DNA of 64,000 nucleotides, from assembly GCA_049968235.1 (NCBI GenBank), contig JBMFRC010000004.1, positions 160,001-224,000 on the forward strand. Direction: 5' to 3'. The number at the start of each line of letters is the position of its first letter. Position 1 is the first letter of the stretch. Below are positions 34,996 to 60,978 of the stretch, in pieces. Under the pieces are notes generated by a model, which did no database searches, was not told the DNA's origin, and saw only the letters and a list, made by a program, of their open reading frames with translations. Source of the DNA: Candidatus Hydrogenedens sp. GTDB lineage: Bacteria > Hydrogenedentota > Hydrogenedentia > Hydrogenedentales > Hydrogenedentaceae. Made by a program: the position numbers and the translations under genes.

Positions 34996-35008
34996 ATATT
35001 AAAAGAAT

Positions 35009-37654: not shown

Positions 37655-38802
37655 CACATTGTGATGAAATAGAACTAAGCGTTGTATTACCTTGTTTGAA
37701 TGAAGAACGGACTATTGGACAATGTGTACAGAAAACACAAAAGGTTTTCGATAAATATCATATTAAAGGTGAAATTATTGTCGCAGATAATAATTCTACG
37801 GATAGTTCCTCATCAATTGCGGAACAAGCAGGTGCGAAGGTAGTCAAGGTAATTACTCCTGGATACGGGAATACTCTTCGAAACGGTATAAAAGAAGCAA
37901 AAGGGAAATATATAATCTTTTTTGATTCTGATTTATCCTATGACCCTGAGGATATTCCTCAAATATTAGAGAAATTACGAGAAGGTTATCCTATTGTTCT
38001 GGGGTCTAGGAAAAAAGGAACGATTGATAGAGGCTCTATGCCATGGTTACATAGATATATAGGCACTCCGATAATGACTTTACTTGCGAATATTTTTTTT
38101 AAGGCACATATAACGGATATTAATTCGGGTATGCGTGGTATGTCCCGAAAAGTATTTGATGAATTAGATTTACATTCGGAAGGCATGGAATTTGCTTCTG
38201 AAATGATAGCAAAAGCACATTGGACCCAAACTAAAATAGCGGAAGTTCCTATTCATTTTCACTGTGACCAGAGGGGAAGGCGTCCACATTTACATTCTGT
38301 TCGTGATGGATGGAGACATTTACAACTTATGTTTCATTATTGTTCTATTAATTGGTTTCTTATACCGGGTTTTATATTGTTATTTTTTTCATACCTTGTA
38401 TTTTTTATTCTGCCTCAGTATATGGATATTTATACATCCTTTTTTATTTCTTTACTAACCAACATTATTGCAACCCAAATTTTATTGATTGGAGTCATTG
38501 CTCAGGGTAGAGTTCGTGGTTCAAAGTTTAGATACATTCCATCAAAATATCTCCTTTTTTTATCCCGAATAATCAAAGTCGAAAAGGGTATGTTTTTGGG
38601 TTTAGGGATATGTTTTTTAGGCATGTTTTTAATGCTTTATACTCTTCGTTCAGGAATAAACATGCCAGATATAACTATAAAAATATTTTTTGGGGGTATT
38701 CTATGTTTTGTTCAGGGGGTTCAGGTTTTATTTAGTTCCATTTTAATCGGGCTGTTTGGAATTCGTGTTTCAGAAGAGGAAGAATTTTTTAGAAAATCTT
38801 AG
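37651..38802 (+). CDS. GT2 polyprenyl-phosphate glycosyltransferase (DPM1/ArnC/GtrB-like) with C-terminal TM helices
   Basis: 383 aa. GT-A N-terminus (LSVVLPCLNEERTI, DSD...YDPED). Four C-terminal hydrophobic helices. This is the architecture of lipid-phosphate-sugar donor synthases that feed GT-C enzymes. Confidence 0.8.
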   Translation: MTHCDEIELSVVLPCLNEERTIGQCVQKTQKVFDKYHIKGEIIVADNNSTDSSSSIAEQAGAKVVKVITPGYGNTLRNGIKEAKGKYIIFFDSDLSYDPEDIPQILEKLREGYPIVLGSRKKGTIDRGSMPWLHRYIGTPIMTLLANIFFKAHITDINSGMRGMSRKVFDELDLHSEGMEFASEMIAKAHWTQTKIAEVPIHFHCDQRGRRPHLHSVRDGWRHLQLMFHYCSINWFLIPGFILLFFSYLVFFILPQYMDIYTSFFISLLTNIIATQILLIGVIAQGRVRGSKFRYIPSKYLLFLSRIIKVEKGMFLGLGICFLGMFLMLYTLRSGINMPDITIKIFFGGILCFVQGVQVLFSSILIGLFGIRVSEEEEFFRKS

Positions 38803-45995: not shown

Positions 45996-48261
45996 GTACT
46001 TGTTGATACCGCATTTCCATTATCTTATTATTAGAGATAACAGGTTCTTTATGCAAAATCTTTCTAAGTTCTTGTTCACTCTTCCATTTATATGGGAAAC
46101 AGCCCAAGGGAAGTATACATTGCGAATCTTCCAATTTATGTTTCGCAAAATGGTTTAAGTAATGAGCTGGACAAAAACCATAGTTCATCAATTTTTCAGA
46201 TTCTTTGGCGAGAGATCTGTAGTCCTTACTCTTCAAAGCGTTCCAAATAGGTCTCATTGTATAGTAGAAAAATATATTTAACCTTTTGCACTTATTAAAT
46301 ACTTTTTCTGCCTCATCAGGATTAGTTTCCAAAAGAGATAATGCATATGGAAAACTTATCCAGGAGATAATATCTATTCCTGGCTTTAATAAATTTTCAA
46401 TCCAGCAAGATTTCCCAATGGATATCCAATCCATAGCCACCTGAATATACGAGCCTCTTTCAGGTGTCTCGTCTGGATTTATATAGTGGGACAAAATAAT
46501 CCCATCTAAAGAATTTACCTCATTTTCAAAGCATAGTTTAAGGTTGGCCATCAATTCCTCAGGAAGTTCCTTTTTTAACCGAAAGTCTGAAGTTTTTCCG
46601 TCAACAATATTCTTAAGGTTATCTTCTACTCGAAACCCGAAATACGCTAAACCTTCAAAAAATGGAAATTCCTTCACAGTAAAATAAATAAGGTGATTCT
46701 CCTCCCACTCTTTCCTTATTGACGGTGCTAATATCCCATATTCTGTCCTCAGAACGACCCACACCGTATATTCCGAAGGAAGATGCTTAATAAGGTATAC
46801 GAGGGCATCAGTGGCTAAATGGAGGGACCCCGCAGAAATTAAGACAGGCTCTTTCTGTTTTAGTCTGGAGCACCAGTGATAGTAAAAAATTGGTGTAATC
46901 TCCTGATGAGCAATAATGAATATATCTTTACCGCTTACATCTTGGGACAAAAGGTCTGTGCATTCATTCCAGGCAGTATATGGCTTCCCTTGTTGATACA
47001 TAAGATATTGAAGAAAAATATATCCCAGCACAACCAAAACCAATAATACCTTCAAAATTCTCTTAGAAGAAGCCCACCTAAAAACCAAATTAATCAGTAG
47101 CCCCCACCGAATAATCAAAGCAGGCAAAAGAAAGCGGAGTGTCATTACAGGAATCTTTGACACCAGGGTAAATCCTACAAAAAACAATGGCATCAAAAAC
47201 GCTAAACATATTAGCGTAAACTCCGGAAGTTCGTCATGTATTGTCTTATCCTTGATACGAGAAAACATCTCCACCAAAAAATAAAATAGTAGAATCAACT
47301 CAAAGACAACATTCCCGCCCTTAAGGGAATAAACCAATATTTTGTCGACAGCACTTGCAATCATATTAGTAAAATCACTATAGCCAAAGATGGAGAAAAT
47401 TAAAATTGCAAACGATGCAAATCGGGGAACTTCATCATCATAAATCCCAAACACATAATTAAAAATAGTAAATAAACAAATTTGAGGTGTATATGCTACA
47501 TTAGAAGGCATAGCAAACAAATCGAGATAAAGCAAAACTAAACAACCCATAAGTAGATTTAACAAACCGAGCATCAGAATTTTTTTCGACCTGTTATTGA
47601 GGAAAAAGTAAATGATAATCCCCGCCTCAAAGAAGAGTAACCACATATAAATATAATAGGTCAGCAGTAATAAGAGATTTACAAAAATTAGGAGTAAACA
47701 TTGAGATGTTCTTATTTCTCCTTCATTCCTTTTGATAAGATTAAAAAATAAATAAAGAGAGCAGATAGAAAGGGAAAAACCCGACGCATGAGGTCTTAAA
47801 AGCATACTGTACCATAAAAAAGTTGGAATAGTAGCGATTGTCATTGCGGATAAAAAACAAACAATTTCATTCCGGAAAAAAATCTTGAATAATCGGTAGC
47901 CAAAAATAACAGTAAATATACTTGCAATTATAGAGAACAATCTAAAAGATTCCGGAGATATACCCAGCAACTTCACAAATATATAAAATATAGTCAAATA
48001 AACAGGGGCAACTTCAGGTCCCTGCGTTCCCACCATTTGGATAAAAGTGTACAAATCCTGAACCTTCAAATATGCTACTCCCCAAAAATACTCATCAAAC
48101 CATATAGAAGGCTTTTGAGATAAGAACAAAATTAATAAGCAGGTGAGAACTACAAGAATACCTATCGGCAAATACCTTTTTTTTACTAATATCAAAGAGT
48201 TATCCATACCTATCTCCAAATTACATAATATCTCGAATTCGTATGAGGTCCATAATCTCAC
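45937..48261 (-). CDS. membrane GT-C glycosyltransferase (PMT/ArnT-like, DE-motif) with C-terminal helical domain, subfamily B
   Basis: 774 aa. First-loop IWFDEYFWG. Many TM helices across about 450 aa. C-terminal soluble domain homologous to that of the adjacent upstream gene (HKLEDSQCILPLGCFPY vs HKLEGSKCVLPIGVFPF). Confidence 0.6.
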   Translation of the reverse strand: MRLWTSYEFEILCNLEIGMDNSLILVKKRYLPIGILVVLTCLLILFLSQKPSIWFDEYFWGVAYLKVQDLYTFIQMVGTQGPEVAPVYLTIFYIFVKLLGISPESFRLFSIIASIFTVIFGYRLFKIFFRNEIVCFLSAMTIATIPTFLWYSMLLRPHASGFSLSICSLYLFFNLIKRNEGEIRTSQCLLLIFVNLLLLLTYYIYMWLLFFEAGIIIYFFLNNRSKKILMLGLLNLLMGCLVLLYLDLFAMPSNVAYTPQICLFTIFNYVFGIYDDEVPRFASFAILIFSIFGYSDFTNMIASAVDKILVYSLKGGNVVFELILLFYFLVEMFSRIKDKTIHDELPEFTLICLAFLMPLFFVGFTLVSKIPVMTLRFLLPALIIRWGLLINLVFRWASSKRILKVLLVLVVLGYIFLQYLMYQQGKPYTAWNECTDLLSQDVSGKDIFIIAHQEITPIFYYHWCSRLKQKEPVLISAGSLHLATDALVYLIKHLPSEYTVWVVLRTEYGILAPSIRKEWEENHLIYFTVKEFPFFEGLAYFGFRVEDNLKNIVDGKTSDFRLKKELPEELMANLKLCFENEVNSLDGIILSHYINPDETPERGSYIQVAMDWISIGKSCWIENLLKPGIDIISWISFPYALSLLETNPDEAEKVFNKCKRLNIFFYYTMRPIWNALKSKDYRSLAKESEKLMNYGFCPAHYLNHFAKHKLEDSQCILPLGCFPYKWKSEQELRKILHKEPVISNNKIMEMRYQQVLSLIGLRDNFASDFLSHSN

Positions 48262-50470
48262 CGTATCGGGTTTCTATTTTTTGATTCACTGTTTTATTAG
48301 GCTCTTTAAGCAAAATATCCCTTAATCTACTCTCACTATTTGTAGTGAATGGGAAAACACCTATGGGGAGAACACATTTTGAACCTTCTAACTTATGTTC
48401 CGCAAGATGATAAAACACATAAGCAAAAAAATAACCGTCATTTAGGAGCCTCTCAGATTCTTTCTTCAATAATGAATACTCATTCTTTTTAAGGTATTCC
48501 CAAATATTGGAAAACACAAAAGCAAAGTAAGGATTTTGCCCTTTTAGTCTCCGAAATATTTCCTCAGCCACATTCTGATTTTCCAACTCTGATAAAGCAT
48601 ACCCAAAAGTTACCCAAGAAGTTAGTTTCTGATATTGCTTTAAAAGAATTCTTGCCCAATCCGACTTTCCTAATCTTATAAGGTCGAGGATTATATGTAT
48701 AACATTAGTCATGCCTATTTCATCCCCAAAATCCCTATAGCGAGCCAATATAATTTTCTCTTCCTCCGTAAACTCATTCTTAAGATTAGCCTGGAGCAGG
48801 GGCACCAATGGACTAGACGAGTATAAGGATTCTTCTACATAAGGCGACTCTTCCTTCACCTTAAGATTTTCCTCGACGGAAAATATATAACACAAAATCC
48901 CTTCCCAAGAAGGGAATCTTGCCAAGGAGTATCTTAAATTGTATTCATCATAAACGGCGGTCATTTTTTGTTCGAAACTTGGGTCCCACTTAGTATTGTA
49001 TATAATGCATATCTTATGTTCAGGGGGAAGTTGCTTAACCAAATAGAGGAGGAAATCCAGAGAAGTATCTAAAGAATCCGAGGTAAAGATAGAAGGAAAC
49101 TTTCTCCTTGTCTTTTCCCGCCAATTGTATTTGAACACAGCACAATCCACATCTGAACCACAAATTATGATGTCATCTTCTCTGAGGTTTTCATTAACAT
49201 ATTGAACGCATCCTTCCCAATCCGTATAAATACTATTTGCTCTAAACAAAAGATATTGATGTAATGCCCATATTAAAATAACAGCAACAACAAACCACTT
49301 TAGTAGAACTTTTTTAGTATTCCAATTATTCAACATAATAAACAACCAACAGAACTTTGCAACATAACAAACTAAAATATATCGAGCCACCAGAACATTA
49401 CCACCAGAAATAAAAGACCAGCCGGCGAAAACAATAGGGCATACAAAGGCAAGTAAGTATATAAATAACAGTTTTTCATCGAATGTCCAAAAGCCTTTTA
49501 TCAATTTCCAAGTTGTAGCTAGGAACGAAGCGAAAAGTACCAACGCAATCAATCCGCCTCCAACATTTAAAACTACTAACGGAGCAACATCACATATCTT
49601 TTGAATCATCGGTGGAGGTACATTCGGAGCAATAATCGGCTGAATATAAACACTCCAAGAAACATAAGAAGGCACTTCAAAATTTCTCACCCCAAAAATT
49701 ATTTCCAACACCTCCAAAAATGAGTAATTTAAGGGAAGTGCCAAAAACTGGTTGCCATAAAAAACATAAACCAAATACATAAAACCTAAAGAAAAAACTA
49801 TCAGGTTGAGGATAGTAGGAAGTAAATACACAAATTTATCTCTAATTACCCTTAGGAAAAGCAAAAAAATCTCAACAGCAATAATCCAAATAAAGAGATA
49901 GTGTGATAAAACCATAAAAATATTAATTACAGGAAGAGAAAAAATAAAAAAAAGTGAATTTTTCCTCTCCGAAGACAAACAGCGAATAAGTAAATATAAT
50001 GAGATAAAAGCAAACATCTGAACTATGGAGTGATACCTCAAAGAAAAGGCATTCCACAAAAATAGGGGAAAGGATACAAATAATAAACTCGCGGCGAGAG
50101 CATATCTTCGTGGTAACAAACTTTTTGCAATAAGGTAGATAAAATTGGCACTCACAATGTTAAAAAGAACTATTACCCATCGAAAAGATTCCACTGAAAC
50201 ACCTAACCTTCCACAAATTAAATAAAGGAAAAAAAAATAAAGAGGAGGGCCCTGGGGGCCATAAGATAAGATATACAGATAAAAAGTAGTGAAACTCGGA
50301 ACATTTAGGTAGTCTAACCCTCCTAAATACTCATCTCCCCAAACAGACGGCTTTTGAGCGATTAATAATATAAATGTTAATGTTATAATCGACAATAATA
50401 AGTGTTCAATACTTCCTATCCGACGGGACAAGTTCCAATATTTACCTATATATATCATGTTAAAATCCAA
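48221..50470 (-). CDS. membrane GT-C glycosyltransferase (PMT/ArnT-like, DE-motif) with C-terminal helical domain, subfamily B, tandem paralog
   Basis: 749 aa. First-loop VWGDEYLGG. Same architecture as the downstream neighbour. The 3' end overlaps the next gene by 41 nt. Confidence 0.6.
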   Translation of the reverse strand: MDFNMIYIGKYWNLSRRIGSIEHLLLSIITLTFILLIAQKPSVWGDEYLGGLDYLNVPSFTTFYLYILSYGPQGPPLYFFFLYLICGRLGVSVESFRWVIVLFNIVSANFIYLIAKSLLPRRYALAASLLFVSFPLFLWNAFSLRYHSIVQMFAFISLYLLIRCLSSERKNSLFFIFSLPVINIFMVLSHYLFIWIIAVEIFLLFLRVIRDKFVYLLPTILNLIVFSLGFMYLVYVFYGNQFLALPLNYSFLEVLEIIFGVRNFEVPSYVSWSVYIQPIIAPNVPPPMIQKICDVAPLVVLNVGGGLIALVLFASFLATTWKLIKGFWTFDEKLLFIYLLAFVCPIVFAGWSFISGGNVLVARYILVCYVAKFCWLFIMLNNWNTKKVLLKWFVVAVILIWALHQYLLFRANSIYTDWEGCVQYVNENLREDDIIICGSDVDCAVFKYNWREKTRRKFPSIFTSDSLDTSLDFLLYLVKQLPPEHKICIIYNTKWDPSFEQKMTAVYDEYNLRYSLARFPSWEGILCYIFSVEENLKVKEESPYVEESLYSSSPLVPLLQANLKNEFTEEEKIILARYRDFGDEIGMTNVIHIILDLIRLGKSDWARILLKQYQKLTSWVTFGYALSELENQNVAEEIFRRLKGQNPYFAFVFSNIWEYLKKNEYSLLKKESERLLNDGYFFAYVFYHLAEHKLEGSKCVLPIGVFPFTTNSESRLRDILLKEPNKTVNQKIETRYGEIMDLIRIRDIM

Positions 50471-52900: not shown

Positions 52901-53401
52901 GTCTCTTAGGTAATAATCCGGGATTTTGGATTATTTCCCCTGTCTTATCCTTCCAGTAAATCCCATTAATATTCTGTAATGACTCTTTTTCCGGAAAAGT
53001 TTCTATAATCTGCTTTAATGCAATTTCGCCTTCCCCGGGACCAGAATATCTATATCTACATCGTCAAAGACACCTTTTCGGACTGCAGAAGCATGTGGTC
53101 ATCCTACAATAATCCATGCAGAAGGACAGGCTGTTCTAAGCATAGGAATTAATGAAGGCAATAAATAGGCAAAGGTTGTAAAAGTAGATATACCTATAAT
53201 ATCGGGATTAAATTCTTTAATACGCCCGCATAATTCTTCTACGCTATAATTTTCTAATCTTTGATTTAATATGCCTATATCAATATCTCTTAACGCCCTT
53301 CGGAGATACGCCGAAAGATAAAGTAAACCCATAGGAGGTGTGGCTAATGGATATAAAGGCCTTCGTAAACCCAGATTAACTAAAAACAATCTTTTCTTCA
53401 T
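52629..53401 (-). pseudogene. chimeric pseudogene: 5' part of a B12-rSAM (B12-binding domain) fused in-frame to the 5' end of a subfamily-B GT-C gene; disrupted by an in-frame TGA and a -1 frameshift
   Basis: Minus-strand reading 53401->53099 gives MKKRLFLVNL...IGISTFTTF...AWIIVG then TGA. The intact paralog has IVGGPHxx here, so GGA->TGA. Continuing gives PHASAVRKGVFDDVDIDILV. Then a 1-nt loss in a G-run (ccgggg) shifts into GEGEIALKQIIETFPEKESLQNINGIYWKDKTGEIIQNPGLLPKRHNIQ. This runs directly into VFVFCLLIILLAFVICIYKTSDESGWWDEYSSLVHINAGSLKEF..., the N-terminus of the 42859-45072 GT-C protein. It terminates at 52629. Confidence 0.6.
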
Positions 53402-53451: not shown

Positions 53452-54624
53452 TCAGATAGCATGGAAAAATTTTTCATAGGTATGTGCTGGTATAGCATGA
53501 AATTTACATAAAATCCATACCAACCATTTAAATTTTCGAAGTAAGGGATAATACGAGGGATAGTCTGTAAAGTACTTATTGGGTGCATTAATAATTGCCT
53601 CAAATTCTTCACGACTTATACCTTGTTTTCTTAAACAATGTTCAACTCGTTCTTCATCTTCAAAAAATGGAACTTCTCGTAACGCTCTTAATGCGGATTC
53701 GCGAGATATTACACCCGTTCTGACTTTTGCAGATAGTTCTACTACACGCCAGTCAAAACCGAATTTTCTCCGGGCATAATAGTAAACCAGAGTAAACAGT
53801 TCATTATCCAGGTGATGTTGCCCTGTATCCTGCCAATCAAATTTCTCTTTTAATAATTTCTCTACTTTTTCCCCCGTATCATCATAGTAATTGGTAATAT
53901 TTATTACACGGATTCTTTTCCAGAGAATCCAATAAATCATATCCTTTAATTCTACATTTTGAAAATGCTTTAACGGTATTGTGCAATATCGTTTGACAAT
54001 AGCACGCGTATATTTCCCGTCAATGTAGTTCCATTTCAATGGCGTTATCCCTTCTTCACGGAAGGAATGACTTAAAATAATGTAATGGACATTCTCGGCA
54101 ACTGCAGTTCGATATAAACTACTTGCAATGCCTATATCATCTGTTAGGTCAATATAAGGGACACAGGCGCGGATAGTTGCATTAGTCAATTCTCGTGATT
54201 CAGGCCAGTCCATAATTATTGTATGTAATTCTACATCTAATTTATCGCAGAGTTTGGCAAGGTTTGTTTTGGCAATTTCCGAGTCCCAACCGTTATCAAA
54301 ATGAACAGCCAGAGGACGCAATTTCATTATTTCCTTAACATAATATAAACAATAAGAAGTATCTCTCCCACCACTGACCCCAACTATACAATCGTATTTT
54401 TTTTCTTTTCCATCGTTTCTTATCTTCTCTGCAATTTTTTGCAATATCATTGCTCCTTTTTCGCCGGTAGGAAAACGCCTATCCAATTTATCATGTATGT
54501 GGCAGAAATTACATATACCTTGATGATCTAAATAAACTCCCGGAATAGATGTATCCATAACACATCGTTTGCATAATGTTTTATCTTCATTTTGTCGAAA
54601 CATATATCTACCAACTCTATTCAT
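53452..54624 (-). CDS. N-acetyl sugar amidotransferase, PP-loop ATPase family (WbuX/PseA-like)
   Basis: 390 aa. N-terminal Cys cluster (CKRCVMD...CNFC). PP-loop SGGxDS (CIVGVSGGRDTSY). Immediately followed by HisF- and HisH-like genes, the conserved acetamidino-sugar trio. Confidence 0.75.
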   Translation of the reverse strand: MNRVGRYMFRQNEDKTLCKRCVMDTSIPGVYLDHQGICNFCHIHDKLDRRFPTGEKGAMILQKIAEKIRNDGKEKKYDCIVGVSGGRDTSYCLYYVKEIMKLRPLAVHFDNGWDSEIAKTNLAKLCDKLDVELHTIIMDWPESRELTNATIRACVPYIDLTDDIGIASSLYRTAVAENVHYIILSHSFREEGITPLKWNYIDGKYTRAIVKRYCTIPLKHFQNVELKDMIYWILWKRIRVINITNYYDDTGEKVEKLLKEKFDWQDTGQHHLDNELFTLVYYYARRKFGFDWRVVELSAKVRTGVISRESALRALREVPFFEDEERVEHCLRKQGISREEFEAIINAPNKYFTDYPSYYPLLRKFKWLVWILCKFHAIPAHTYEKFFHAI

Positions 54625-55439
54625 AATCGTGATAATTCTAAATCAATCGGTTTTTTGGGGTCTCTTTTCCGAACATGTTCAGGTCGAAAATGCTCTAATA
54701 ATTGTTCTTCTGTAGGATAAGTTATTAATACTGTTCTTCGAGGACCGTAAAAAAGGAAGAATGCCCCACATGCTACTGCAGAAACTCCCGAAAAATAATA
54801 GGCATCCGCTAAATCTTTTACAGAACCTGCACCTCCGCAAGCAATTACAGGAATCTGGACATTATCTACAATCACTTTTATTAATTCCAAATCATATCCT
54901 TCAAGAGTCCCATCTCTATCAATACTTGTAATTAATATTTCACCTGCTCCTTCTTCCTCCGCTCTTTTCGCCAATTCGATTGGATTCAATCCTGTTGATT
55001 TTCGTCCTCCATGTGTGAATACTTCATATTTGCCATTTACTCTACGGACATCAATGGATACTACAATACATTGTCTTCCAAACTGTTCAGCGGATTTTTT
55101 TAATAAATCGGGAACCTCAATTACAGAAGTGTTAAGGACCACTCTATCAGCCCCTGCATTCAGTAATTCTCTTATGGTATTAATATCACGAATTCCGCCT
55201 CCAACTGTAAACGGCATGGATGTTTCCGCAGATATTTGTTTCACTATCTCTATTTCTGGAGAGCGATTTTCAAGTGTTGCTACAATATCTAACAAGATTA
55301 ATTCATCTACATTATGTTGATTAAAAACACGAGCTGCATTAATGGGACAACCCACATATTTCGGATTGGTAAATTGGATTGTTTTTTCCAATCCCCAATG
55401 TCGTAATAAAAGGACAGGTATCACTCTAACTTTTAGCAT
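54621..55439 (-). CDS. imidazole glycerol phosphate synthase cyclase-subunit paralog (HisF-like, WbuZ-type) of a glycan amidotransferase module
   Basis: 272 aa. HisF (beta/alpha)8 motifs (RVIPVLLL...DELILLDI...FTVGGGIR...ADRVVLNTS...IVVSIDV...GAGEILITSIDRDGT). Its context, not the his operon, indicates the LPS/glycan role. Confidence 0.8.
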   Translation of the reverse strand: MLKVRVIPVLLLRHWGLEKTIQFTNPKYVGCPINAARVFNQHNVDELILLDIVATLENRSPEIEIVKQISAETSMPFTVGGGIRDINTIRELLNAGADRVVLNTSVIEVPDLLKKSAEQFGRQCIVVSIDVRRVNGKYEVFTHGGRKSTGLNPIELAKRAEEEGAGEILITSIDRDGTLEGYDLELIKVIVDNVQIPVIACGGAGSVKDLADAYYFSGVSAVACGAFFLFYGPRRTVLITYPTEEQLLEHFRPEHVRKRDPKKPIDLELSRL

Positions 55440-56085
55440 TCAATACCTCGTTTAAAAAATTTTGTATTAACATTGTACCACTGATATAACTCTTTTCGGG
55501 ATGAAATTGAGTTCCATAAATATTCTTGTTTTGATATAAGGAAATAAATGGAATTCCATATTCCGTTATTCCCAGTTTTCCATTAATTTCCTTAAATGGA
55601 ACAAAATAAGAATGAGCAAAATAAAAATTAGGGGTTTCTATCATTCCGGATAACAATGATAATTCTTCTTTATAAACCTTTACATCGTTCCAACCGATAT
55701 GTGGTACGCGAATAGGGTCTTTAACTACATCTCGTATATGACAAACTCTTGCAGGTATCCATCCTAATCCCTTTGATTTTCCTTCCTCACTGAATTCTGT
55801 CATAATTTGAAAGCCTAAACAAATACCCAAGACGGGCTTTTTTAATTCTAATACATAATGATTTAATCTTCTGGTCAAGCCTATCTTTGTAAGGAAATCC
55901 ATAGCACTTCCGCAAGCACCAACTCCAGGTAAGACAATTGCATCGAATTTATCCAACTCAATTTCATTACTAACAACTTCAATAGCAACTCCGGTTTTAG
56001 CAAAACAACGATATACTGAATGTATATTTCCTGCGGAGTAATCAATAATTCCAATTTTTATATTTTTATCTTGAAATATTTTCAT
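55426..56085 (-). CDS. glutamine amidotransferase subunit paralog (HisH-like, WbuY-type)
   Basis: Class I GATase triad context (GICLGFQ Cys; HPEKS His). The ORF track extends to 56121, but MKIFQDKNIKIGIIDYSAGN at about 56085 is the likelier start. Confidence 0.8.
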   Translation of the reverse strand: MKIFQDKNIKIGIIDYSAGNIHSVYRCFAKTGVAIEVVSNEIELDKFDAIVLPGVGACGSAMDFLTKIGLTRRLNHYVLELKKPVLGICLGFQIMTEFSEEGKSKGLGWIPARVCHIRDVVKDPIRVPHIGWNDVKVYKEELSLLSGMIETPNFYFAHSYFVPFKEINGKLGITEYGIPFISLYQNKNIYGTQFHPEKSYISGTMLIQNFLNEVLNAKS

Positions 56086-57811
56086 TCCCACGGAAACTAT
56101 CCTTGTTTTGTGCCACCACAAAATTATTCAAAAACAGGTAATCCAGTCCTGACTCTATAAATGTCTGTAAGGCTTCTTCTGGAGTCCGAACAATGGGTGA
56201 TTCATGCATATTGAAACTTGTATTCAGTATTACACTGGTTCCTGTTAATTCCTTATAATTTTTTAATATTTTATAAAAAGTCGGATTATTTTCTTTTTTT
56301 ACAAGTTGGGCTCGCGTTGTTCCATCTATATGTACAACGGCACCATGTTGTTCTTTCATCTTTTGTGTACTTCGAAAACAGCATGTCATAAATTCACCTG
56401 CATGCCTTGCTTTTTCATATCCTATCAAAAACTGTTCCGCGTCCTCATATAAAAGAGCCGGAGCAAAAGGCATAAAATCACTTCGTTTTAACATAATGTT
56501 TAACTTTCCTGTTATATCCCGCATTGTAGAATCACATAAGATAGAACGATTACCTAAAGCACGTGGTCCCCATTCCATTTTATCATAAAATCGTGCAATA
56601 ATTTTTTTATGATAAAGACTTTCTGCTATAAATTGAAATATTTTTGTATCATCAAATTCCTGAAATGGAAGATTATATTTAAGTATTGCTGATTTAATTT
56701 CTTCGTTACTAAAACAATCTCCCCAAAATGCGTGCGGGAGGGGCTGGGGATTGAAATGGAATTGCGAACATATAGCCCCCAGGCTCAGTCCCCCATCTCC
56801 CATGTTTGGATATACAAATAATTCTTCGACTTCTGGTAATTCATGTATTTTTTGATTTAGCAACACATTAGCAAATACTCCTCCTGCAACGGCTACCTTA
56901 TTAAGTCCTGTTTTCTTTAGCCAATATTGAATTAAAGAACCAATTGTCTGTTCTAAGATATTTTGTGACCATGCACATAAATCCTCTCTTGAATATTTTT
57001 GTAATAATTGCAAAAGCCAGTCTCTTAATTTTTTACCATGAGGACCTTTGTATAAGAGAAGATTTTCATTCCATGAAAATGGGTTTTCATCTTTAATTTT
57101 GGATGCATCTCCATGGGCAGAAAGTCCCGTAAGTTTTCCTTCATCTCTACAAGGAACAAAGCCTAATACCTCTGTTAAATTTTCAAAAAATAGGCCAAAA
57201 GAACTTTTAGCAGAGGATTTCCATAACCTTGTTATAATATTTCCATGTCCTTGAGAAACAGTTAAGGATAGTCCATCCCCCATTCCATCTGCAGTAACAA
57301 TAAGTGCATTATCATACCCCGAACAGAAATAACTTCCCCATGCATGGGCTTCGTGATGCTCAATAAAATAAATAGGGATATGAGGAGGAAGAAAGGGTAA
57401 TCGCTTATGAATTATTTTTTTCAAAATGACAGATAATTTTTTTTTCATTCCTTCGGATGGATTCATATAACTAATAGGATTATAAGAAACAGCCCATTCT
57501 GTAATATTACTCCAATATGTTTTACTTTTTTGATTTTTTTCTCGCCTTGAAAGAAATGCTTTTTTTTGTAAATTTGGGAATAAGCGAAAAAATGGGAATG
57601 GGGTTACAAATCCAGAGACACATACTCCTTCTATATCTTTCCAGGTTAAACCTGTTTGTTTTAAGGCATTTTCTAACGATAGGTATGGAAAGCCTCCCTC
57701 ATTTTTTCTTTGTGTGTATCGTTCCTCGTTGGACATAAATAAAATTTTATCATCATCACAAAGAGTAACACCCGCGTCAAAAAAATCTTCACTAATTCCC
57801 AATATAATCAT
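56066..57811 (-). CDS. NodU/CmcH-family carbamoyltransferase
   Basis: 581 aa. ASKHA-fold N-domain (MIILGISEDFFDAGVTLC...). Metal-binding His residues (HHEAHAW). C-terminal YrdC-like carbamoyl-adenylate domain. Family members O-carbamoylate sugars and antibiotics. Confidence 0.8.
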   Translation of the reverse strand: MIILGISEDFFDAGVTLCDDDKILFMSNEERYTQRKNEGGFPYLSLENALKQTGLTWKDIEGVCVSGFVTPFPFFRLFPNLQKKAFLSRREKNQKSKTYWSNITEWAVSYNPISYMNPSEGMKKKLSVILKKIIHKRLPFLPPHIPIYFIEHHEAHAWGSYFCSGYDNALIVTADGMGDGLSLTVSQGHGNIITRLWKSSAKSSFGLFFENLTEVLGFVPCRDEGKLTGLSAHGDASKIKDENPFSWNENLLLYKGPHGKKLRDWLLQLLQKYSREDLCAWSQNILEQTIGSLIQYWLKKTGLNKVAVAGGVFANVLLNQKIHELPEVEELFVYPNMGDGGLSLGAICSQFHFNPQPLPHAFWGDCFSNEEIKSAILKYNLPFQEFDDTKIFQFIAESLYHKKIIARFYDKMEWGPRALGNRSILCDSTMRDITGKLNIMLKRSDFMPFAPALLYEDAEQFLIGYEKARHAGEFMTCCFRSTQKMKEQHGAVVHIDGTTRAQLVKKENNPTFYKILKNYKELTGTSVILNTSFNMHESPIVRTPEEALQTFIESGLDYLFLNNFVVAQNKDSFRGNENISR

Positions 57812-57841: not shown

Positions 57842-58828
57842 TTATATCCATAGAGCATTCCAGATTGCAGAAGGATTTAAATTCCATATTAAAGCAAGTT
57901 CTACTATCGGTGCACACCAACAGGTTGCACAACCTATAGGAACTGTTAATTGTTTTATTGACTTCTCGAAATTTTTTTCTGTTTCTTTTTTCTGTTTATA
58001 CAGTTTTCGTGTTCCAAACAAGTGGCAGGAAAGTATCGTTCCATCCGGTTCTATTGTATATGTTAACCGACCTGCACAACACCATATTTTCGTGGGATGA
58101 GGCCAGTTGCTTAAATATTTTAAGCCTGCAAATGAATTGCGTACAGGTGCCCCCTGTTTTTTATTTTTTATAATGTACTGTATCGTATCAAAATACTCAT
58201 CTTTATTAGGAGCAATTGGATTGGGTTTTAATGATGAATCCAGATGTAGAGTTGCAGGTTGAAACATTACTTTAATATGTTCTTCCTGAGCCTTTTGCAA
58301 AACATAATCTATTGTTTTTATATTTAGTTTTGAAATTACACATAAAAAAGATGTAGATATATTTTTCATTTTGCAATATTTTACAACCTCAAATAAATGT
58401 TTGTAGGTCCCTTTACCTCGGATTTCATCATGTATCTCTTCGGGACCATCAAAACTTAAATTAATATGGTCAATATACTTCTCAATTCCGTCATGTTTTT
58501 CTATGTTTACCCCCGTAGAACTTAAAAAAATGTTCAATCCAAGTGATTTTGAATGTTGCAAAATTGTCATTATATCTTTTTTAATTAATGGTTCTCCTCC
58601 ACCAAATGTAATCCATCTTACACCTGATTTGTATAAGATTGTTAATCTTTCTATAATTTCTTCCGTATCTAACTCATTTATAGAAACTTCACGAGAACCA
58701 CAGTAAAGGCACTGATAAGGACAACGAAAAGTTAAATTCCATTCTACAAACAATGGTGCATTTATCCCTAATATTTTTGTTTTTATCCATGATTTTAAGA
58801 GTGCAGGGACGTTTTTTATTTTCTTCAT
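57842..58828 (-). CDS. radical SAM protein with C-terminal SPASM/twitch-like Cys-rich domain
   Basis: 328 aa. CxxxCxxC (LTFRCPYQCLYCGS). C-terminal auxiliary-cluster cysteines (CCAGRL...CHLFG...CATCWC). Confidence 0.7.
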   Translation of the reverse strand: MKKIKNVPALLKSWIKTKILGINAPLFVEWNLTFRCPYQCLYCGSREVSINELDTEEIIERLTILYKSGVRWITFGGGEPLIKKDIMTILQHSKSLGLNIFLSSTGVNIEKHDGIEKYIDHINLSFDGPEEIHDEIRGKGTYKHLFEVVKYCKMKNISTSFLCVISKLNIKTIDYVLQKAQEEHIKVMFQPATLHLDSSLKPNPIAPNKDEYFDTIQYIIKNKKQGAPVRNSFAGLKYLSNWPHPTKIWCCAGRLTYTIEPDGTILSCHLFGTRKLYKQKKETEKNFEKSIKQLTVPIGCATCWCAPIVELALIWNLNPSAIWNALWI

Positions 58829-59757
58829 TGAATACTTTCTTCCAAATGAATCTTTTTATATAATTTCAATCGAAATAGTGCTAACCAACCTACGGGAATC
58901 CATATCCAGAATGTAATTATACGAAACAGTCCTATAACAAGGATTATTTCTGGCAACTGAACCTTAAGCCAGTGCAGAGAAATACTCATTGTTGTTTCAA
59001 CAATCCCAATTCCTCCGGGGATTCCGCTACATATTGCGAGGAAGAGATTTCCCAACACAATCATTTCTGCTTGAGTTAAATATATTCCTGATTCTTTTCC
59101 TCCTAACAATAAATAAAAAATAAGACCGTTAACAGCCCAACCTATTGAACAACCTATGCAAAATATGATGAGGAATAAAGGATGTGATAAATCATCTGCC
59201 AGTGATATTTTGAATTTTGATAACAAGGGCTTTGACATTTTAATGAATAAAGGGAACATAATTAATATTAAAAGTGAAAGAATTATCGGCAGGAGAAAAG
59301 TATTCGCATAAAATCCTAAGGACATAATTATTATTAAAAATGCTCCTTCAAAAACACATAATAAAAATAGAAATTCTAAAGACATTGCCTTTGAGAGGGA
59401 AATATCTGTTGTTTTTGTAATTATATATCCTCTTAAAGCCCTTCCTAACTGTGCGGGCAATATAATTCCTGCTCCAGAACTCAGGTAAATCCAAACTGAC
59501 TTCATTATAGGAACATTTGCAGAATACTTTTTGAGCATACATCTCCATAAATAATAATCCAATATCCAGTCTAACAACCGTAAAGAACATGCAAACAGGA
59601 ACAATCGCCATCTATTTATAATTAAATTCTTTATATCTGTAAGATTCTCTTCTCTTATCTGATAAATTCCAAAACAAGTTATTACAAAAAGAAGAACAAA
59701 ACCAGATATATGTAGTAAATTTAATATTTTGTCTTTATTTTTTATAAAATTAAACAT
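58825..59757 (-). CDS. flippase-like polytopic membrane protein (UPF0104 / LPG-synthase-TM-like)
   Basis: 310 aa, about 8 TM helices. This family is commonly adjacent to GT2 polyprenyl-phosphate glycosyltransferases. Overlaps the upstream rSAM by 4 nt. Confidence 0.5.
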   Translation of the reverse strand: MFNFIKNKDKILNLLHISGFVLLFVITCFGIYQIREENLTDIKNLIINRWRLFLFACSLRLLDWILDYYLWRCMLKKYSANVPIMKSVWIYLSSGAGIILPAQLGRALRGYIITKTTDISLSKAMSLEFLFLLCVFEGAFLIIIMSLGFYANTFLLPIILSLLILIMFPLFIKMSKPLLSKFKISLADDLSHPLFLIIFCIGCSIGWAVNGLIFYLLLGGKESGIYLTQAEMIVLGNLFLAICSGIPGGIGIVETTMSISLHWLKVQLPEIILVIGLFRIITFWIWIPVGWLALFRLKLYKKIHLEESIQ

Positions 59758-59781: not shown

Positions 59782-60978
59782 TTGTATATGATACCACGAC
59801 GATGGATACATATTTTACCTGCTGAATATAACGAAGTTCTAAATCCTTCCCCGGAAGTACTATCCAATTACGATATTATTTCCCGATGGGAAAATGAGTT
59901 CCGTTCTTTTATAGGTTCTCCAAATGCTGTTTCTTTGCCCTCTGGAAGAGTTGGACTAAAACTTATATTACAACATTTGAATCTTAAAGAGAATGACGAA
60001 ATAATTATTCCTGCACTCACATTGAAAGCACTGGTAAGTATTATAACATCATCAGGACTAAAACCTGTTTGTGCAGATATAAACCCTAAAACATTAAATA
60101 TAGACCCTGAATCGGTTCAGAATTTAATTTCACCCCGAACAAAAGCTATAATCGCTTTACATACTTTTGGGAATCCTTGCTTAATTGAAAAAATATGCAA
60201 AATAGGTCAGGAAAATAATATCCCTGTTATTGAAGATACTGCTCATGCTTGTGGTGCCAGAATTCAGAATCAATTTGCGGGGACATTCGGATATGCTGGT
60301 TTTTTTAGTTTTGATATATCCAAGCCCGTAAATACATACGGGGGTGGAATGGTTACCAGTGAAGATTCGTCACTTATTGACTTCATTCGAGAATACAATA
60401 AAAAACTTATTATAGATACAGTTGAAATAACCAGGAAAGCAAAGTCTATTAAGTTAGAACAGACGTTATATAACATAAAACTCATGTATCCTATTCTTTA
60501 TTTAAGACTGTTCCGACCCTTTTTTAAGTCCCTTGAGTTTGTATACCGTAAAATTCAAAGTGTCCCTCCCGAGAATGTTCAGTTTACACCTCTACAAGCA
60601 AGTATAGGCATAGAAAAATTACCTTTCTTAAGTTCAAAAGTAGAACAAAGAAATGAAGTGGCACAATTATATCGTAAGTTATTATCTGATAAAATTAATA
60701 TTCCTTATGTAAGACCTGATTGTATACCTTCTTATTACATGTTTGTTGTTATTCTTCCTAAAAAATCTCATAATATCTGTTCTTCCCTTCTTTTTCGTGG
60801 TATTGATACTGCATTTGAGGAAGAAATAATTGATGATGTTTCTCTAATAATTGAAAAATCACATTGTCCAAACGCTAATAAGGTATACCCAAATTTGTTA
60901 GCCTTACCTTTCTATGATGGTATTTCACAAGATACTATTGAATATATCTGTAATTGTTTAAATAAACTTGTGGAATAA
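59782..60978 (+). CDS. DegT/DnrJ/EryC1/StrS-family PLP-dependent sugar aminotransferase
   Basis: 398 aa. Fold-type I aminotransferase. PLP-lysine region GFFSFDISKPVNTYGGG. DTAHA motif. Confidence 0.8.
   Translation: MYMIPRRWIHILPAEYNEVLNPSPEVLSNYDIISRWENEFRSFIGSPNAVSLPSGRVGLKLILQHLNLKENDEIIIPALTLKALVSIITSSGLKPVCADINPKTLNIDPESVQNLISPRTKAIIALHTFGNPCLIEKICKIGQENNIPVIEDTAHACGARIQNQFAGTFGYAGFFSFDISKPVNTYGGGMVTSEDSSLIDFIREYNKKLIIDTVEITRKAKSIKLEQTLYNIKLMYPILYLRLFRPFFKSLEFVYRKIQSVPPENVQFTPLQASIGIEKLPFLSSKVEQRNEVAQLYRKLLSDKINIPYVRPDCIPSYYMFVVILPKKSHNICSSLLFRGIDTAFEEEIIDDVSLIIEKSHCPNANKVYPNLLALPFYDGISQDTIEYICNCLNKLVE

What the first reader, a model, noticed from the sequence alone, without database searches (positions are those of the whole stretch)
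53452..57811. Acetamidino-sugar module (PP-loop amidotransferase + HisH/HisF paralogs) coupled to a NodU/CmcH carbamoyltransferase
The WbuX/WbuY/WbuZ-type trio is known from O-antigen and pseudaminic/legionaminic acid pathways. It converts an N-acetyl group on an amino sugar to an acetimidoyl group. Here it is followed by an O-carbamoyltransferase.

Further along are a SPASM rSAM, a flippase-like protein and a DegT aminotransferase. This predicts a heavily decorated amino sugar (amidino + carbamoyl, possibly C-methylated) as the island's glycan unit.

The HisH/HisF pair must not be mistaken for histidine biosynthesis genes.
Basis: established knowledge. Interest (0 to 1): 0.5.

Follow-up and report, generated by a model that had tools for sequence, protein, structure and literature searches.

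The report
Amidino-sugar genes linked to a carbamoyltransferase
Four overlapping genes in an uncultured Hydrogenedentes bacterium encode a known ammonia-delivering enzyme trio that converts a sugar's amide group into a positively charged amidine, plus a carbamoyl-adding enzyme; the two are linked in at least three phyla, in a setting that resembles single-sugar surface-decoration pathways rather than classic O-antigen clusters.

Summary
Window 53452-57811 (minus strand) holds four overlapping ORFs:
- a NodU/CmcH/TobZ-type carbamoyltransferase (CT);
- a HisH-like glutaminase;
- a HisF-like barrel of the AglZ/HisF2 family;
- a PP-loop N-acetyl-sugar amidotransferase (NASAT/WbuX family).

No his genes occur anywhere in the 64 kb. 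The HisF-like protein lacks the cyclase Asp11 (Leu instead). It groups with 65 WbuX-linked paralogs, apart from seven his-operon HisFs, in 94/100 bootstraps. The HisH tree is unresolved.

- CT is upstream of the trio in the operon, not after it.
- The radical SAM protein has no SPASM Pfam hit.
- The context is not an O-antigen or nonulosonate cluster. It is GT2 + flippase-like protein + several PMT_2 (GT-C) transferases.

New here: CT-(HisH)-HisF-WbuX is a conserved module in Hydrogenedentota, Planctomycetota and Elusimicrobia. It accompanies one WbuX clade (13/36 loci) and never the classic clade (0/44). No N-acetyltransferase was detected beside it.

The product is most likely a carbamoylated amidino amino sugar. 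A less likely reading is ureido-to-guanidino chemistry. All chemistry is inferred. I rate it a new variant of a known kind, of moderate interest.

The parts
53452..54624 (-). PP-loop N-acetyl-sugar amidotransferase (NASAT / WbuX / AglX family), 390 aa
   Evidence: TIGR03573 218.6 bits against cut-off 203.2. PP-loop SGGRDT and Zn motif C18xxC21...G36xC38xxC41 (motif definition from PMC10607449). AF2 model pLDDT 89.9. Best PDB match 8WEX LpNASAT, E 1e-14, TM 0.62-0.64.
54621..55439 (-). HisF-like (beta/alpha)8 barrel of the AglZ/HisF2/WbuZ family; presumed ammonia channel or scaffold, not the IGP synthase cyclase
   Evidence: NF038364 327.7 against 310. TIGR00735 hisF 232.2 against 294.55. Asp11 is Leu and Asp130 is kept; gate residues R5, E46 and E167 are kept and K99 is Arg (alignment). 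Monophyletic with WbuX-linked paralogs in 94/100 bootstraps.
55426..56085 (-). HisH-like class I glutaminase (WbuY/AglY-like), 219 aa from ATG 56085 (the ORF is open back to TTG 56121)
   Evidence: TIGR01855 197.6 against 105.4; Pfam GATase. Cys in GICLG and His-Pro-Glu present. 14-nt overlap with the HisF-like gene. Phylogeny unresolved.
56066..57811 (-). NodU/CmcH/TobZ-family carbamoyltransferase (Kae1-like plus YrdC-like domains), 581 aa
   Evidence: Pfam PF02543 and PF16861. Matches NovN, TobZ and GdmN at E 1e-57 to 1e-52. HHxAH...DG, GPRALGxRS, PFAP, HxDxxxRxQ and NTSFN all align with TobZ/NovN. NodU equivalog cut-off not met, 86 against 1000.
57842..58828 (-). Radical SAM enzyme with an auxiliary-cluster Cys motif (twitch/partial SPASM); candidate sugar-oxidising or dehydrating enzyme that feeds DegT
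   Evidence: Pfam Radical_SAM. CX3CX2C plus CX11GX4C plus CX2CXC. The auxiliary Cys are invariant in 25 homologs. Narrow family. AF2 pLDDT 91.2. Best PDB match BlsE 7VOB, TM 0.69.
58825..59757 (-). LPG_synthase_TM 'flippase-like' membrane protein; first gene of the operon
   Evidence: PF03706 75.3 bits against 33.4. TIGR00374 30.9, below its cut-off of 43.2. This Pfam family was found 7 times among the neighbours of the 12 CT-linked loci.
59782..60978 (+). DegT/DnrJ/EryC1 sugar aminotransferase, divergent from the operon (likely start ATG 59788)
   Evidence: PF01041 211.5 bits. Below the cut-offs of the PseC, LegC and ArnB equivalogs. Start inspected.
37651..38802 (+). GT2 glycosyltransferase; candidate polyprenyl-phosphate sugar synthase of the same island
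   Evidence: PF00535 99.6 bits. Conserved with the module in L001, L002, L006, L008, L017, L030 and L087.
32812..37654 (+). Two PMT_2 (GT-C) transferases with C-terminal TPR repeats
   Evidence: PF13231 plus TPR families.
42859..45072 (-). 737-aa protein conserved next to the module in relatives; weak PMT_2 (GT-C) similarity
   Evidence: PF13231 E 3.5e-4, below cut-off. Ortholog present in L001, L002, L006 and L008.
48221..50470 (-). 749-aa PMT_2-like GT-C protein inside the inserted segment
   Evidence: PF13231 E 1.5e-7.
52908..53401 (-). Remnant (N-terminal 167 aa, frameshifted) of the B12-binding radical SAM gene that follows WbuX in relatives
   Evidence: tblastn of the L002 481-aa protein: aa 1-149 at 53401-52961 (58%), aa 124-167 at 53039-52908, and the last 19 aa at 45178-45125. 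Pfam B12-binding on ORF 53099-53401.

Best explanation
The four genes are the core of a six-gene operon (flippase-like protein, radical SAM enzyme, CT, HisH-like, HisF-like, WbuX-like) with a divergent DegT gene. Together they tailor one amino sugar.

Proposed steps:
1. The HisH-like glutaminase releases ammonia from glutamine.
2. The HisF-like barrel has lost its cyclase Asp but keeps the channel gate residues. It passes the ammonia to the PP-loop enzyme.
3. The PP-loop enzyme adenylates the carbonyl oxygen of an acylamido group on the sugar and replaces it with NH. This gives a cationic amidine, an acetamidino group if the acyl is acetyl.
4. CT makes carbamoyl-AMP from carbamoyl phosphate and ATP and carbamoylates a hydroxyl or amino group of the same sugar.
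5. The amino group comes from DegT, acting on a keto sugar made by the radical SAM enzyme. Planctomycete versions have a GFO/IDH/MocA dehydrogenase in that role.
6. The finished sugar is probably handled as a polyprenyl-phosphate monosaccharide: GT2 loads it, the flippase-like protein translocates it, and PMT_2 GT-C enzymes transfer it to a surface acceptor.

Shown here: gene identities, intact catalytic motifs, non-histidine status of the HisF paralog, and conserved linkage.

Inferred: every chemical step, the substrate, the order of reactions and the acceptor.
For: - Curated-model matches above cut-off for WbuX, AglZ/HisF2 and HisH, and both CT domains.
- PP-loop and tetracysteine motif (PMC10607449).
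- Predicted fold best matches LpNASAT 8WEX.
- Asp11 is Leu in 62/62 WbuX-linked HisF paralogs and Asp in 7/7 his-operon HisFs. The paralog clade has 94% bootstrap support.
- HisF::WbuX fusion proteins exist: L087 653 aa and P0089 656 aa. This argues for physical coupling.
- Overlapping genes.
- The block LPGtm-rSAM-CT-HisH-HisF-WbuX plus DegT is kept in relatives whose WbuX is 91%, 87% and 78-79% identical.
- CT-(HisH)-HisF-WbuX adjacency also occurs in Planctomycetota (L030, L031, L035, L036) and Elusimicrobia (L033).
- A CT is near the trio in 13/36 loci of this WbuX clade and 0/44 of the classic clade (Fisher p 7e-6; the loci are not independent).
- Neighbour census of 12 CT-linked loci (counts are ORFs matching each family): Radical_SAM 13, DegT 7, LPG_synthase_TM 7, GT2 5, PMT_2 3. 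No Wzx, Bac_transf or GT1 among the families shown. Classic loci differ.
- The radical SAM model best matches BlsE, which acts on a sugar nucleoside (PMC3715490, abstract seen).
Against: - No biochemical data exist for any protein of this clade.
- No N-acetyltransferase was detected in the module, so an acetamido target must come from a pre-acetylated precursor such as UDP-GlcNAc. This is assumed, not shown.
- About half of the loci of the same WbuX clade have no CT within 10 kb. Some have WbuX alone (L004, L011, L025-27, L037), so the coupling is not obligatory at the locus level.
- The HisH phylogeny does not separate paralogs from true HisH.
- LPG_synthase_TM is not a proven glycolipid flippase and falls below the TIGR00374 cut-off.
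- The GT2 and PMT_2 genes lie 15-20 kb from the operon in this window.
- No promoter or terminator signal defines the operon.
Confidence: 0.7

Rival explanations
1. Guanidino-sugar pathway. CT N-carbamoylates the amine installed by DegT, giving a ureido sugar. The PP-loop enzyme, using ammonia from HisH/HisF, then converts the ureido carbonyl to C=NH and produces a guanidino sugar. In this reading CT occupies the place that the N-acetyltransferase WbpD holds before the amidotransferase WbpG in the Pseudomonas O5 pathway.
For: - No Hexapep or GNAT acetyltransferase was found in the window island, L030 or L087, or among the families shown for the 12-locus census.
- Hexapep proteins were found 6 times among the neighbours of 14 classic loci.
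- Annotated classic plasmid examples carry an N-acyltransferase next to the trio.
- CT directly abuts the amidotransferase genes in three phyla.
- Planctomycete order: CT-HisF-WbuX-dehydrogenase-DegT-GT2.
- The CT-linked WbuX clade has nine fixed differences from the classic clade, including Asp162 and Asp249 where the classic clade has Thr and Tyr.
- PP-loop enzymes that turn a ureido-type carbonyl into C=N are established (argininosuccinate synthetase, GMP synthase). Both appear among the distant fold matches.
Against: - It is purely contextual.
- All characterised NodU/CmcH/TobZ-type sugar carbamoyltransferases I know of are O-carbamoyltransferases (own knowledge).
- UDP-GlcNAc already supplies an N-acetyl group, so the missing acetyltransferase is not diagnostic.
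- Trios of the same clade occur without a nearby CT.
- I do not know whether the clade-specific residues line the pocket.
- No natural guanidino-sugar glycan turned up in the literature search.
Confidence: 0.15
2. The HisH/HisF pair are ordinary histidine-biosynthesis genes (imidazole glycerol phosphate synthase) that happen to lie next to sugar genes.
For: TIGR01855 (hisH) is passed, and Pfam His_biosynth matches at 220.9 bits. The HisH tree cannot exclude it for HisH alone.
Against: - No hisA, B, C, D, G or IE anywhere in the 64 kb.
- The hisF equivalog cut-off is failed and the AglZ/HisF2 cut-off is passed.
- Catalytic Asp11 is Leu.
- The paralog clade has 94% bootstrap support.
- The genes overlap with WbuX, and HisF::WbuX fusions exist.
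Confidence: 0.02
3. CT and the trio are merely co-located tailoring enzymes that act on different sugars or different glycans of the island, or the module modifies a non-sugar molecule (lipid, peptide or small metabolite).
For: - The island carries five or more GT-C-like genes and several radical SAM genes, so more than one product is possible.
- CT homologs at 47-53% identity also occur without any trio (L086, L088).
- Orphan WbuX genes exist.
Against: - Direct adjacency and overlap of CT with the trio persists across three phyla while the surrounding genes change.
- In L085 the block LPGtm-rSAM-CT-HisH-HisF stays together even though WbuX has moved 420 kb away.
- DegT and GT2 neighbours point to a sugar substrate.
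Confidence: 0.13

Closest known systems
WbuX/WbuY/WbuZ (E. coli O145), WbpG with HisH2/HisF2 (P. aeruginosa O5), and AglX/AglY/AglZ (Methanococcus maripaludis): acetamidino-sugar amidotransferase systems
   Same: The same three protein families: a PP-loop NASAT with a tetracysteine Zn site, a HisH-like glutaminase and a HisF-like barrel lacking Asp11. Curated models are passed and the fold matches LpNASAT 8WEX. The family description is from PMC10607449. The AglXYZ genetics are from my own knowledge.
   Different: - Gene order is HisH-HisF-WbuX. The roughly 40%-identical classic loci have WbuX-HisH-HisF.
- It belongs to a separate WbuX clade with nine fixed residue differences.
- It is only just above the TIGR03573 cut-off and below the TIGR03572 WbuZ cut-off.
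- It is preceded by a CT.
- No N-acetyltransferase, Wzx, initiating transferase or GT1/GT4 was seen nearby.
TobZ / NovN / GdmN / NodU / CmcH O-carbamoyltransferases
   Same: The two-domain Kae1-like plus YrdC-like architecture. All signature motifs align.
   Different: Alignments to TobZ, NovN and GdmN cover mainly the C-terminal two-thirds. It is far below the NodU equivalog cut-off (86 against 1000). It sits in a glycoconjugate operon rather than an antibiotic or Nod-factor cluster. The acceptor atom (O or N) is unknown.
Lipid-carrier single-sugar decoration systems: Arn (L-Ara4N on lipid A), Gtr (O-antigen glucosylation), and GT2/flippase/GT-C 'three-component' systems (Kelly et al. 2024, PMC11127046)
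   Same: The island combines a sugar aminotransferase (ArnB is also DegT-family), a GT2, a putative flippase and GT-C (PMT_2, the ArnT/PMT-type Pfam family) transferases. An amidine would give a cationic sugar, as Ara4N is.
   Different: - The flippase candidate is LPG_synthase_TM, not ArnE/F, GtrA or MATE.
- The tailoring enzymes (CT, amidotransferase trio, radical SAM) are not part of any described system of this kind.
- The acceptor is unknown.
- The GT-C proteins carry TPR domains.
BlsE plus a PLP enzyme in blasticidin S biosynthesis (radical SAM enzyme acting on a sugar nucleoside)
   Same: The radical SAM protein next to DegT has BlsE as its best structural match (TM 0.69 both ways, equal length).
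   Different: Only 14% sequence identity. PqqE, SkfB and SuiB score almost as well by E-value. The function is inferred only from fold and neighbourhood.

Membership tests
NASAT / WbuX (TIGR03573) N-acetyl-sugar amidotransferase | Score at or above the curated TIGR03573 cut-off | tested here: met
   218.6 bits against 203.2. A narrow margin.
NASAT / WbuX (TIGR03573) N-acetyl-sugar amidotransferase | PP-loop SGGxDS | tested here: met
   S84-G-G-R-D-T89. Thr replaces the final Ser in 97% of this clade.
NASAT / WbuX (TIGR03573) N-acetyl-sugar amidotransferase | Tetracysteine Zn motif CXXCXn[GN]XCXXC (PMC10607449) | tested here: met
   C18, C21, G36, C38 and C41 are conserved in at least 90% of both clades.
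NASAT / WbuX (TIGR03573) N-acetyl-sugar amidotransferase | Fold of LpNASAT (8WEX) | tested here: met
   AF2 pLDDT 89.9. 8WEX ranks first at E 1e-14, TM 0.62-0.64. The next hits have E of 1e-5 or weaker.
NASAT / WbuX (TIGR03573) N-acetyl-sugar amidotransferase | Converts a sugar N-acetyl group to acetamidino | not testable with these tools
   Needs an enzyme assay or glycan analysis.
AglZ / HisF2 / WbuZ | Curated model cut-off | tested here: met
   NF038364 327.7 against 310. The older TIGR03572 WbuZ model gives 288.2 against 299.7, just below.
AglZ / HisF2 / WbuZ | Branches with WbuX-linked paralogs, outside his-operon HisF | tested here: met
   NJ tree of 78 sequences: the WbuX-linked set including the window is monophyletic in 94/100 bootstraps.
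Bona fide HisF (IGP synthase cyclase) | TIGR00735 cut-off, catalytic Asp11, and his-operon context | tested here: not met
   232.2 against 294.55. Leu at position 11. No his genes in the window.
HisH-type class I glutaminase | Cys-His-Glu triad and the TIGR01855 cut-off | tested here: met
   197.6 against 105.4. GICLG and FHPE are present.
HisH-type class I glutaminase | A paralog distinct from his-operon HisH | tested here: inconclusive
   In the NJ tree neither group is supported (7-8%). Window identity is 36% to true HisH and 39% to classic WbuX-linked HisH.
NodU/CmcH/TobZ carbamoyltransferase | Both Pfam domains and the catalytic motifs | tested here: met
   PF02543 93.0 bits, PF16861 187.2 bits. 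HHxAH, DG, GPRALGxRS, PFAP, HxDxxxRxQ and NTSFN align with TobZ/NovN.
NodU/CmcH/TobZ carbamoyltransferase | Orthology to NodU (NF041651) | tested here: not met
   86.4 bits against a cut-off of 1000. It is a family member, not a NodU ortholog.
NodU/CmcH/TobZ carbamoyltransferase | O-carbamoylation of a sugar hydroxyl | not testable with these tools
   Sequence cannot tell O- from N-carbamoylation.
SPASM radical SAM | PF13186 SPASM domain and the seven-Cys motif | tested here: not met
   No PF13186 hit for the protein or its 72 close homologs. CX11GX4C is present, but then only CX2CXC follows. This looks twitch-like or a partial SPASM.
GT2 / flippase / GT-C lipid-carrier glycosylation (Arn/Gtr-like) | GT2 synthase plus GT-C transferase encoded with the sugar-tailoring genes | tested here: met
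   Window GT2 at 37651-38802 and PMT_2 genes. The same set occurs in L001, L002, L087, L033 and L030.
GT2 / flippase / GT-C lipid-carrier glycosylation (Arn/Gtr-like) | A known flippase family and a polyprenyl-phosphate sugar intermediate | tested here: inconclusive
   LPG_synthase_TM passes the Pfam cut-off but is below TIGR00374's. The lipid intermediate cannot be tested here.
Pseudaminic / legionaminic acid or Wzx/Wzy O-antigen cluster | NeuB/PseI-type synthase, CMP-transferase, Wzx, Wzy, and an initiating phosphoglycosyltransferase | tested here: not met
   None was found among the window ORFs of at least 100 aa, or among the families shown for the 12 CT-linked loci. They are frequent in classic loci.

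The most novel reading that the evidence does not exclude
The conserved CT-(HisH)-HisF-WbuX module makes a guanidino sugar. The steps would be DegT amine, then N-carbamoyl (ureido) by CT, then adenylation by the PP-loop enzyme and attack by channelled ammonia to give a guanidine. The sugar would then be placed on the cell surface by a GT2/flippase/GT-C route. To my knowledge this would be the first enzymatic route to a guanidino sugar in a bacterial surface glycan, and a new substrate class for the NASAT family. A guanidino group on an amine adds 42.022 Da and an acetyl adds 42.011 Da, so low-resolution mass spectrometry could have missed such residues.
Probability: 0.15. Interest if true: 0.8.

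Novelty: new variant of a known kind. Interest (0 to 1): 0.42.

Why it matters
The amidotransferase trio itself is known, and annotation pipelines already name it. Three things are new.

- A distinct WbuX clade is repeatedly fused into one operon with a carbamoyltransferase. This holds across Hydrogenedentota, Planctomycetota and Elusimicrobia.
- The operon lies beside GT2, a flippase-like protein and GT-C genes, not in an O-antigen polymerisation cluster.
- No N-acetyltransferase was detected in the module.

If the model holds, these little-studied phyla decorate a surface molecule with a single, permanently cationic, carbamoylated amino sugar. That would be a functional cousin of the Ara4N, GlcN and GalN lipid A modifications, which control resistance to cationic peptides.

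It also gives a concrete, testable candidate for unprecedented ureido-to-guanidino sugar chemistry. And it offers a small, well-defined gene set for reconstituting NASAT biochemistry; the only structural paper on the family (2023) states that little is known about its functional properties.

Tried and rejected
- Exact look-up of the window's WbuX protein: not on record. The source was inferred from relatives. The closest is Candidatus Hydrogenedens terephthalaticus, 91%.
- blastn (distant mode) of the HisF/WbuX DNA against E. coli genomes, to fetch O145 wbuXYZ: no match. Annotated plasmid and chromid examples were used instead.
- HisH phylogeny: unresolved, so no conclusion was drawn. My first bootstrap test was also mis-specified and used a saturating distance; it was redone.
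- Sigma-54 promoter search, prompted by the NtrC-type regulator in the island: 29 two-mismatch matches against 18.5 expected, none convincingly placed upstream of the operon.
- Sigma-70 promoter and terminator scan: not enriched, 33 against 42.5 expected.
- Histidine-biosynthesis reading: rejected (see rival explanations).
- RiPP reading of the radical SAM genes: not pursued. The neighbours are sugar enzymes, no precursor peptide was looked for, and the best fold match is a sugar-modifying enzyme.
- Acetyltransferase hidden in the unannotated ORFs (148, 489, 737 and 774 aa; L030 194 and 197 aa; L087 164, 272 and 613 aa): no Pfam hit even at E 0.05.
- Whether CT-less trios of the same clade carry an acetyltransferase instead: no. 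They sit among unrelated housekeeping genes.
- Literature searches for acetamidino plus carbamoyltransferase, guanidino sugars, and N-carbamoyltransferase plus TobZ: nothing relevant.

Full report
**What is in the sequence**

The finding's coordinates coincide exactly with four minus-strand ORFs.

- **Carbamoyltransferase (CT), 56066-57811.** It carries both carbamoyltransferase Pfam domains. Its best solved relatives are NovN, TobZ and GdmN, at E 1e-57 to 1e-52. The signature motifs align with them: HHxAH...DG in the Kae1-like half, and GPRALGxRS, PFAP, HxDxxxRxQ and NTSFN in the YrdC-like half. It is far below the NodU equivalog cut-off. It is therefore a family member, not a NodU ortholog.
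- **HisH-like protein, 55426-56121.** It most likely starts at ATG 56085, giving 219 aa as in its orthologs. It has the glutaminase Cys and the His-Pro-Glu motif.
- **HisF-like protein, 54621-55439.** It passes the AglZ/HisF2 equivalog cut-off and fails the hisF cut-off.
- **WbuX-like protein, 53452-54624.** It passes TIGR03573 narrowly (218.6 against 203.2). It has the PP-loop (SGGRDT) and the tetracysteine motif that define the NASAT family (PMC10607449). Its AlphaFold model (pLDDT 89.9) matches the only solved NASAT, 8WEX, well ahead of other PP-loop enzymes.

The genes overlap (ATGA, 14 nt, 20 nt) or are 30 nt apart. They continue upstream into a radical SAM gene and an LPG_synthase_TM gene, with a divergent DegT gene. 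In the direction of transcription the order is flippase-like, radical SAM, CT, HisH, HisF, WbuX. CT therefore precedes the trio.

**Not histidine biosynthesis**

I scanned every ORF of at least 100 aa in the 64 kb. I found no hisA, B, C, D, G or IE gene; the only amino-acid biosynthesis gene I noted is a trpD-like one.

For a phylogeny I collected two sets.
- Seven HisF proteins whose records annotate them as hisF, five of them beside other his genes. They come from E. coli K-12, Deinococcus, Monoglobus, Microbacterium, Listeria, Acinetobacter and Natrinema.
- 65 HisF-like proteins that lie next to WbuX homologs in loci fetched from public genomes.

In a neighbour-joining tree rooted with HisA, all WbuX-linked proteins, including the window's, form one group in 94 of 100 bootstraps.

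The cyclase catalytic Asp11 is Asp in 7/7 true HisFs and Leu in 62/62 WbuX-linked ones. Asp130 is kept. Three of the four channel-gate residues are kept (R5, E46, E167) and the fourth is conservatively replaced (K99 to Arg). The roles assigned to these residues come from my own knowledge of Thermotoga HisF.

The same analysis for HisH gave no resolution (7-8% support). The HisH-like gene is therefore assigned to the module only by overlap and conserved synteny.

Natural HisF::WbuX fusions (653 and 656 aa) support physical cooperation between the barrel and the PP-loop enzyme.

**The link with the carbamoyltransferase is conserved and clade-specific**

The nearest relatives are Hydrogenedentota, the closest being Candidatus Hydrogenedens terephthalaticus at 91% WbuX identity.

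Relatives whose WbuX is 91%, 87% and 78-79% identical keep the whole block, including DegT. They also keep the neighbouring 737-aa protein, hydrolase, 489-aa protein, B12 radical SAM gene and GT2, with PMT_2-TPR genes alongside.

I ran tblastn with the window's proteins against 84 loci. This splits WbuX homologs into two groups.

| Group | WbuX identity to window | Taxa | Gene order | CT within the fetched flanks (up to 10 kb) |
|---|---|---|---|---|
| CT-linked clade | at least 54% | Hydrogenedentota, Planctomycetota, Elusimicrobia, some MAGs labelled otherwise | HisH-HisF-WbuX | 13 of 36 |
| Classic clade | about 40% | Archaea, Bacteroidota, Chloroflexota and others | WbuX-HisH-HisF | 0 of 44 |

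Fisher's p is 7e-6, but the loci are not independent.

- In Planctomycetota the order is CT-HisF-WbuX-GFO/IDH/MocA dehydrogenase-DegT-GT2, with no HisH.
- In Elusimicrobia two PMT_2 genes precede CT-HisH-HisF-WbuX.
- Starting from CT homologs instead, two of four looked up sit with amidotransferase parts.
- In one 3.5-Mb genome the block GT9-LPGtm-rSAM-CT-HisH-HisF is intact next to an IS630 element, while WbuX lies 420 kb away.

The coupling is frequent and old, but not obligatory at the locus level.

**Context**

I took a Pfam census of neighbours within 7 kb, after removing the four module genes. Counts are ORFs matching each family.

| Set | Families found |
|---|---|
| 12 CT-linked loci, 69 ORFs | Radical_SAM 13, DegT 7, LPG_synthase_TM 7, GT2 5, B12-binding 5, PMT_2 3, DedA-type VTT 3 |
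| 14 classic loci, 128 ORFs | Hexapep acetyltransferases 6, Wzx-type Polysacc_synt 5, Bac_transf 5, GT1 4, 4,6-dehydratases/epimerases 6, Asn_synthase 6 |

In the CT-linked set no Hexapep/GNAT acetyltransferase, Wzx, initiating phosphoglycosyltransferase or GT1 appears among the listed families. All families with two or more members are listed; 14 single-member families were not shown, so one isolated hit could be hidden.

Annotated plasmid examples of the classic type also carry an N-acyltransferase beside the trio.

The window's module therefore does not sit in an O-antigen or nonulosonic-acid cluster. It sits in a set of genes reminiscent of lipid-carrier single-sugar decoration systems such as Arn, Gtr and the 'three-component' systems of PMC11127046. 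Those consist of an aminotransferase, a GT2 synthase, a flippase and a GT-C transferase.

The radical SAM protein belongs to a narrow family. It has a conserved auxiliary Cys motif but no SPASM Pfam domain. Its model best matches BlsE (TM 0.69), a radical SAM enzyme that acts on a sugar nucleoside (PMC3715490, abstract seen). Planctomycetes have a GFO/IDH/MocA dehydrogenase beside DegT instead. I therefore infer that the radical SAM enzyme supplies the keto sugar for transamination.

**Most likely mechanism**

1. Glutamine is hydrolysed by the HisH-like subunit.
2. Ammonia travels through the HisF-like barrel to the PP-loop enzyme.
3. The PP-loop enzyme adenylates an acylamido carbonyl on the sugar and forms an amidine.
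4. CT adds a carbamoyl group through carbamoyl-AMP.
5. The sugar is loaded on polyprenyl phosphate, flipped, and transferred by PMT_2 GT-C enzymes.

Only the gene identities, motifs, phylogeny and linkage are shown here. Everything chemical is inferred from the families.

**Rival readings**

The histidine reading is rejected.

A real alternative follows from the missing acetyltransferase and the position of CT. In the Pseudomonas O5 pathway the order is dehydrogenase, aminotransferase, N-acetyltransferase, amidotransferase (own knowledge; WbpG's role is cited in PMC10607449). In the window's module CT stands where the acetyltransferase would be. N-carbamoylation followed by PP-loop amidation would give a guanidino sugar. 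This is chemistry of the argininosuccinate synthetase and GMP synthase type.

In favour: the CT-linked WbuX clade has nine fixed differences from the classic clade, including two new Asp residues.

Against:
- UDP-GlcNAc already supplies an acetamido group.
- The known sugar carbamoyltransferases of this family are O-directed.
- Trios of this clade exist without a nearby CT.

I give this reading about 0.15.

**Verdict**

The trio is a member of a known system. The conserved fusion with a carbamoyltransferase, the distinct WbuX clade and the GT2/flippase/GT-C context make it a new variant of a known kind. Interest is moderate.

Noticed in passing
window 45125-53401: The B12-binding radical SAM gene that follows WbuX in relatives (L002, 481 aa) is broken here. 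Its first 167 codons lie at 53401-52908, with a frameshift. Its last 19 codons lie at 45178-45125. About 7.7 kb has been inserted between them, carrying a 774-aa unknown protein, a 749-aa PMT_2-like protein and another B12 radical SAM gene on the plus strand.
   Followed up: partly
L004 and L085 (same 3.5-Mb contig, ERZ21831104 ctg97496l): The module is split in this genome. GT9-LPGtm-rSAM-CT-HisH-HisF sits next to IS630 transposase genes. The 69%-identical WbuX gene lies about 420 kb away, alone between a SurA-like gene and an oligopeptide ABC transporter.
   Followed up: partly
L087 11950-13911 (minus strand); protein P0089: Natural fusions of the HisF-like barrel with the PP-loop WbuX domain (653 and 656 aa).
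   Followed up: partly
L028-L031, L035, L036 (Planctomycetota): In these loci tblastn found a HisF-like gene but no HisH-like gene in the fetched flanks. In L030, where I read the ORFs, CT is directly followed by HisF and WbuX. This suggests use of free ammonia or of the housekeeping HisH.
   Followed up: no
window 57842-58828: The radical SAM protein belongs to a small family found almost only in Hydrogenedentes (72 proteins at 30% identity or more, then a sharp drop). It has invariant auxiliary cysteines, and its best structural match is BlsE rather than a peptide-modifying SPASM enzyme.
   Followed up: partly
window 27188-50470: The island holds five GT-C-like membrane proteins (two PMT_2-TPR, one 749-aa PMT_2, one weak PMT_2 of 737 aa, one 774-aa unknown). 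It also holds two large TPR proteins and a PAS histidine kinase with an NtrC-type sigma-54 activator. No convincing sigma-54 promoter was found.
   Followed up: partly
window 40298-41767 and 41784-42857: A 489-aa protein with no Pfam match and an alpha/beta hydrolase (glucuronoyl-esterase/S9-like) are conserved next to the B12 radical SAM and GT2 genes in the close Hydrogenedentes relatives examined (L001, L002, L005-L008). Their role is unknown; the hydrolase could remove a protecting acyl or carbamoyl group.
   Followed up: no
window WbuX protein, residues 89, 151, 161, 162, 249, 267, 273, 277, 279: Nine positions are fixed differently (at least 90% each) in the CT-linked and classic WbuX clades: T/S, I/L, T/P, D/T, D/Y, T/Y, D/E, F/T and L/F. 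Their location relative to the active site was not determined.
   Followed up: no
window 10032-13637: A 1201-aa gingipain-type C25 peptidase with its propeptide domain. It is unrelated to the finding.
   Followed up: no
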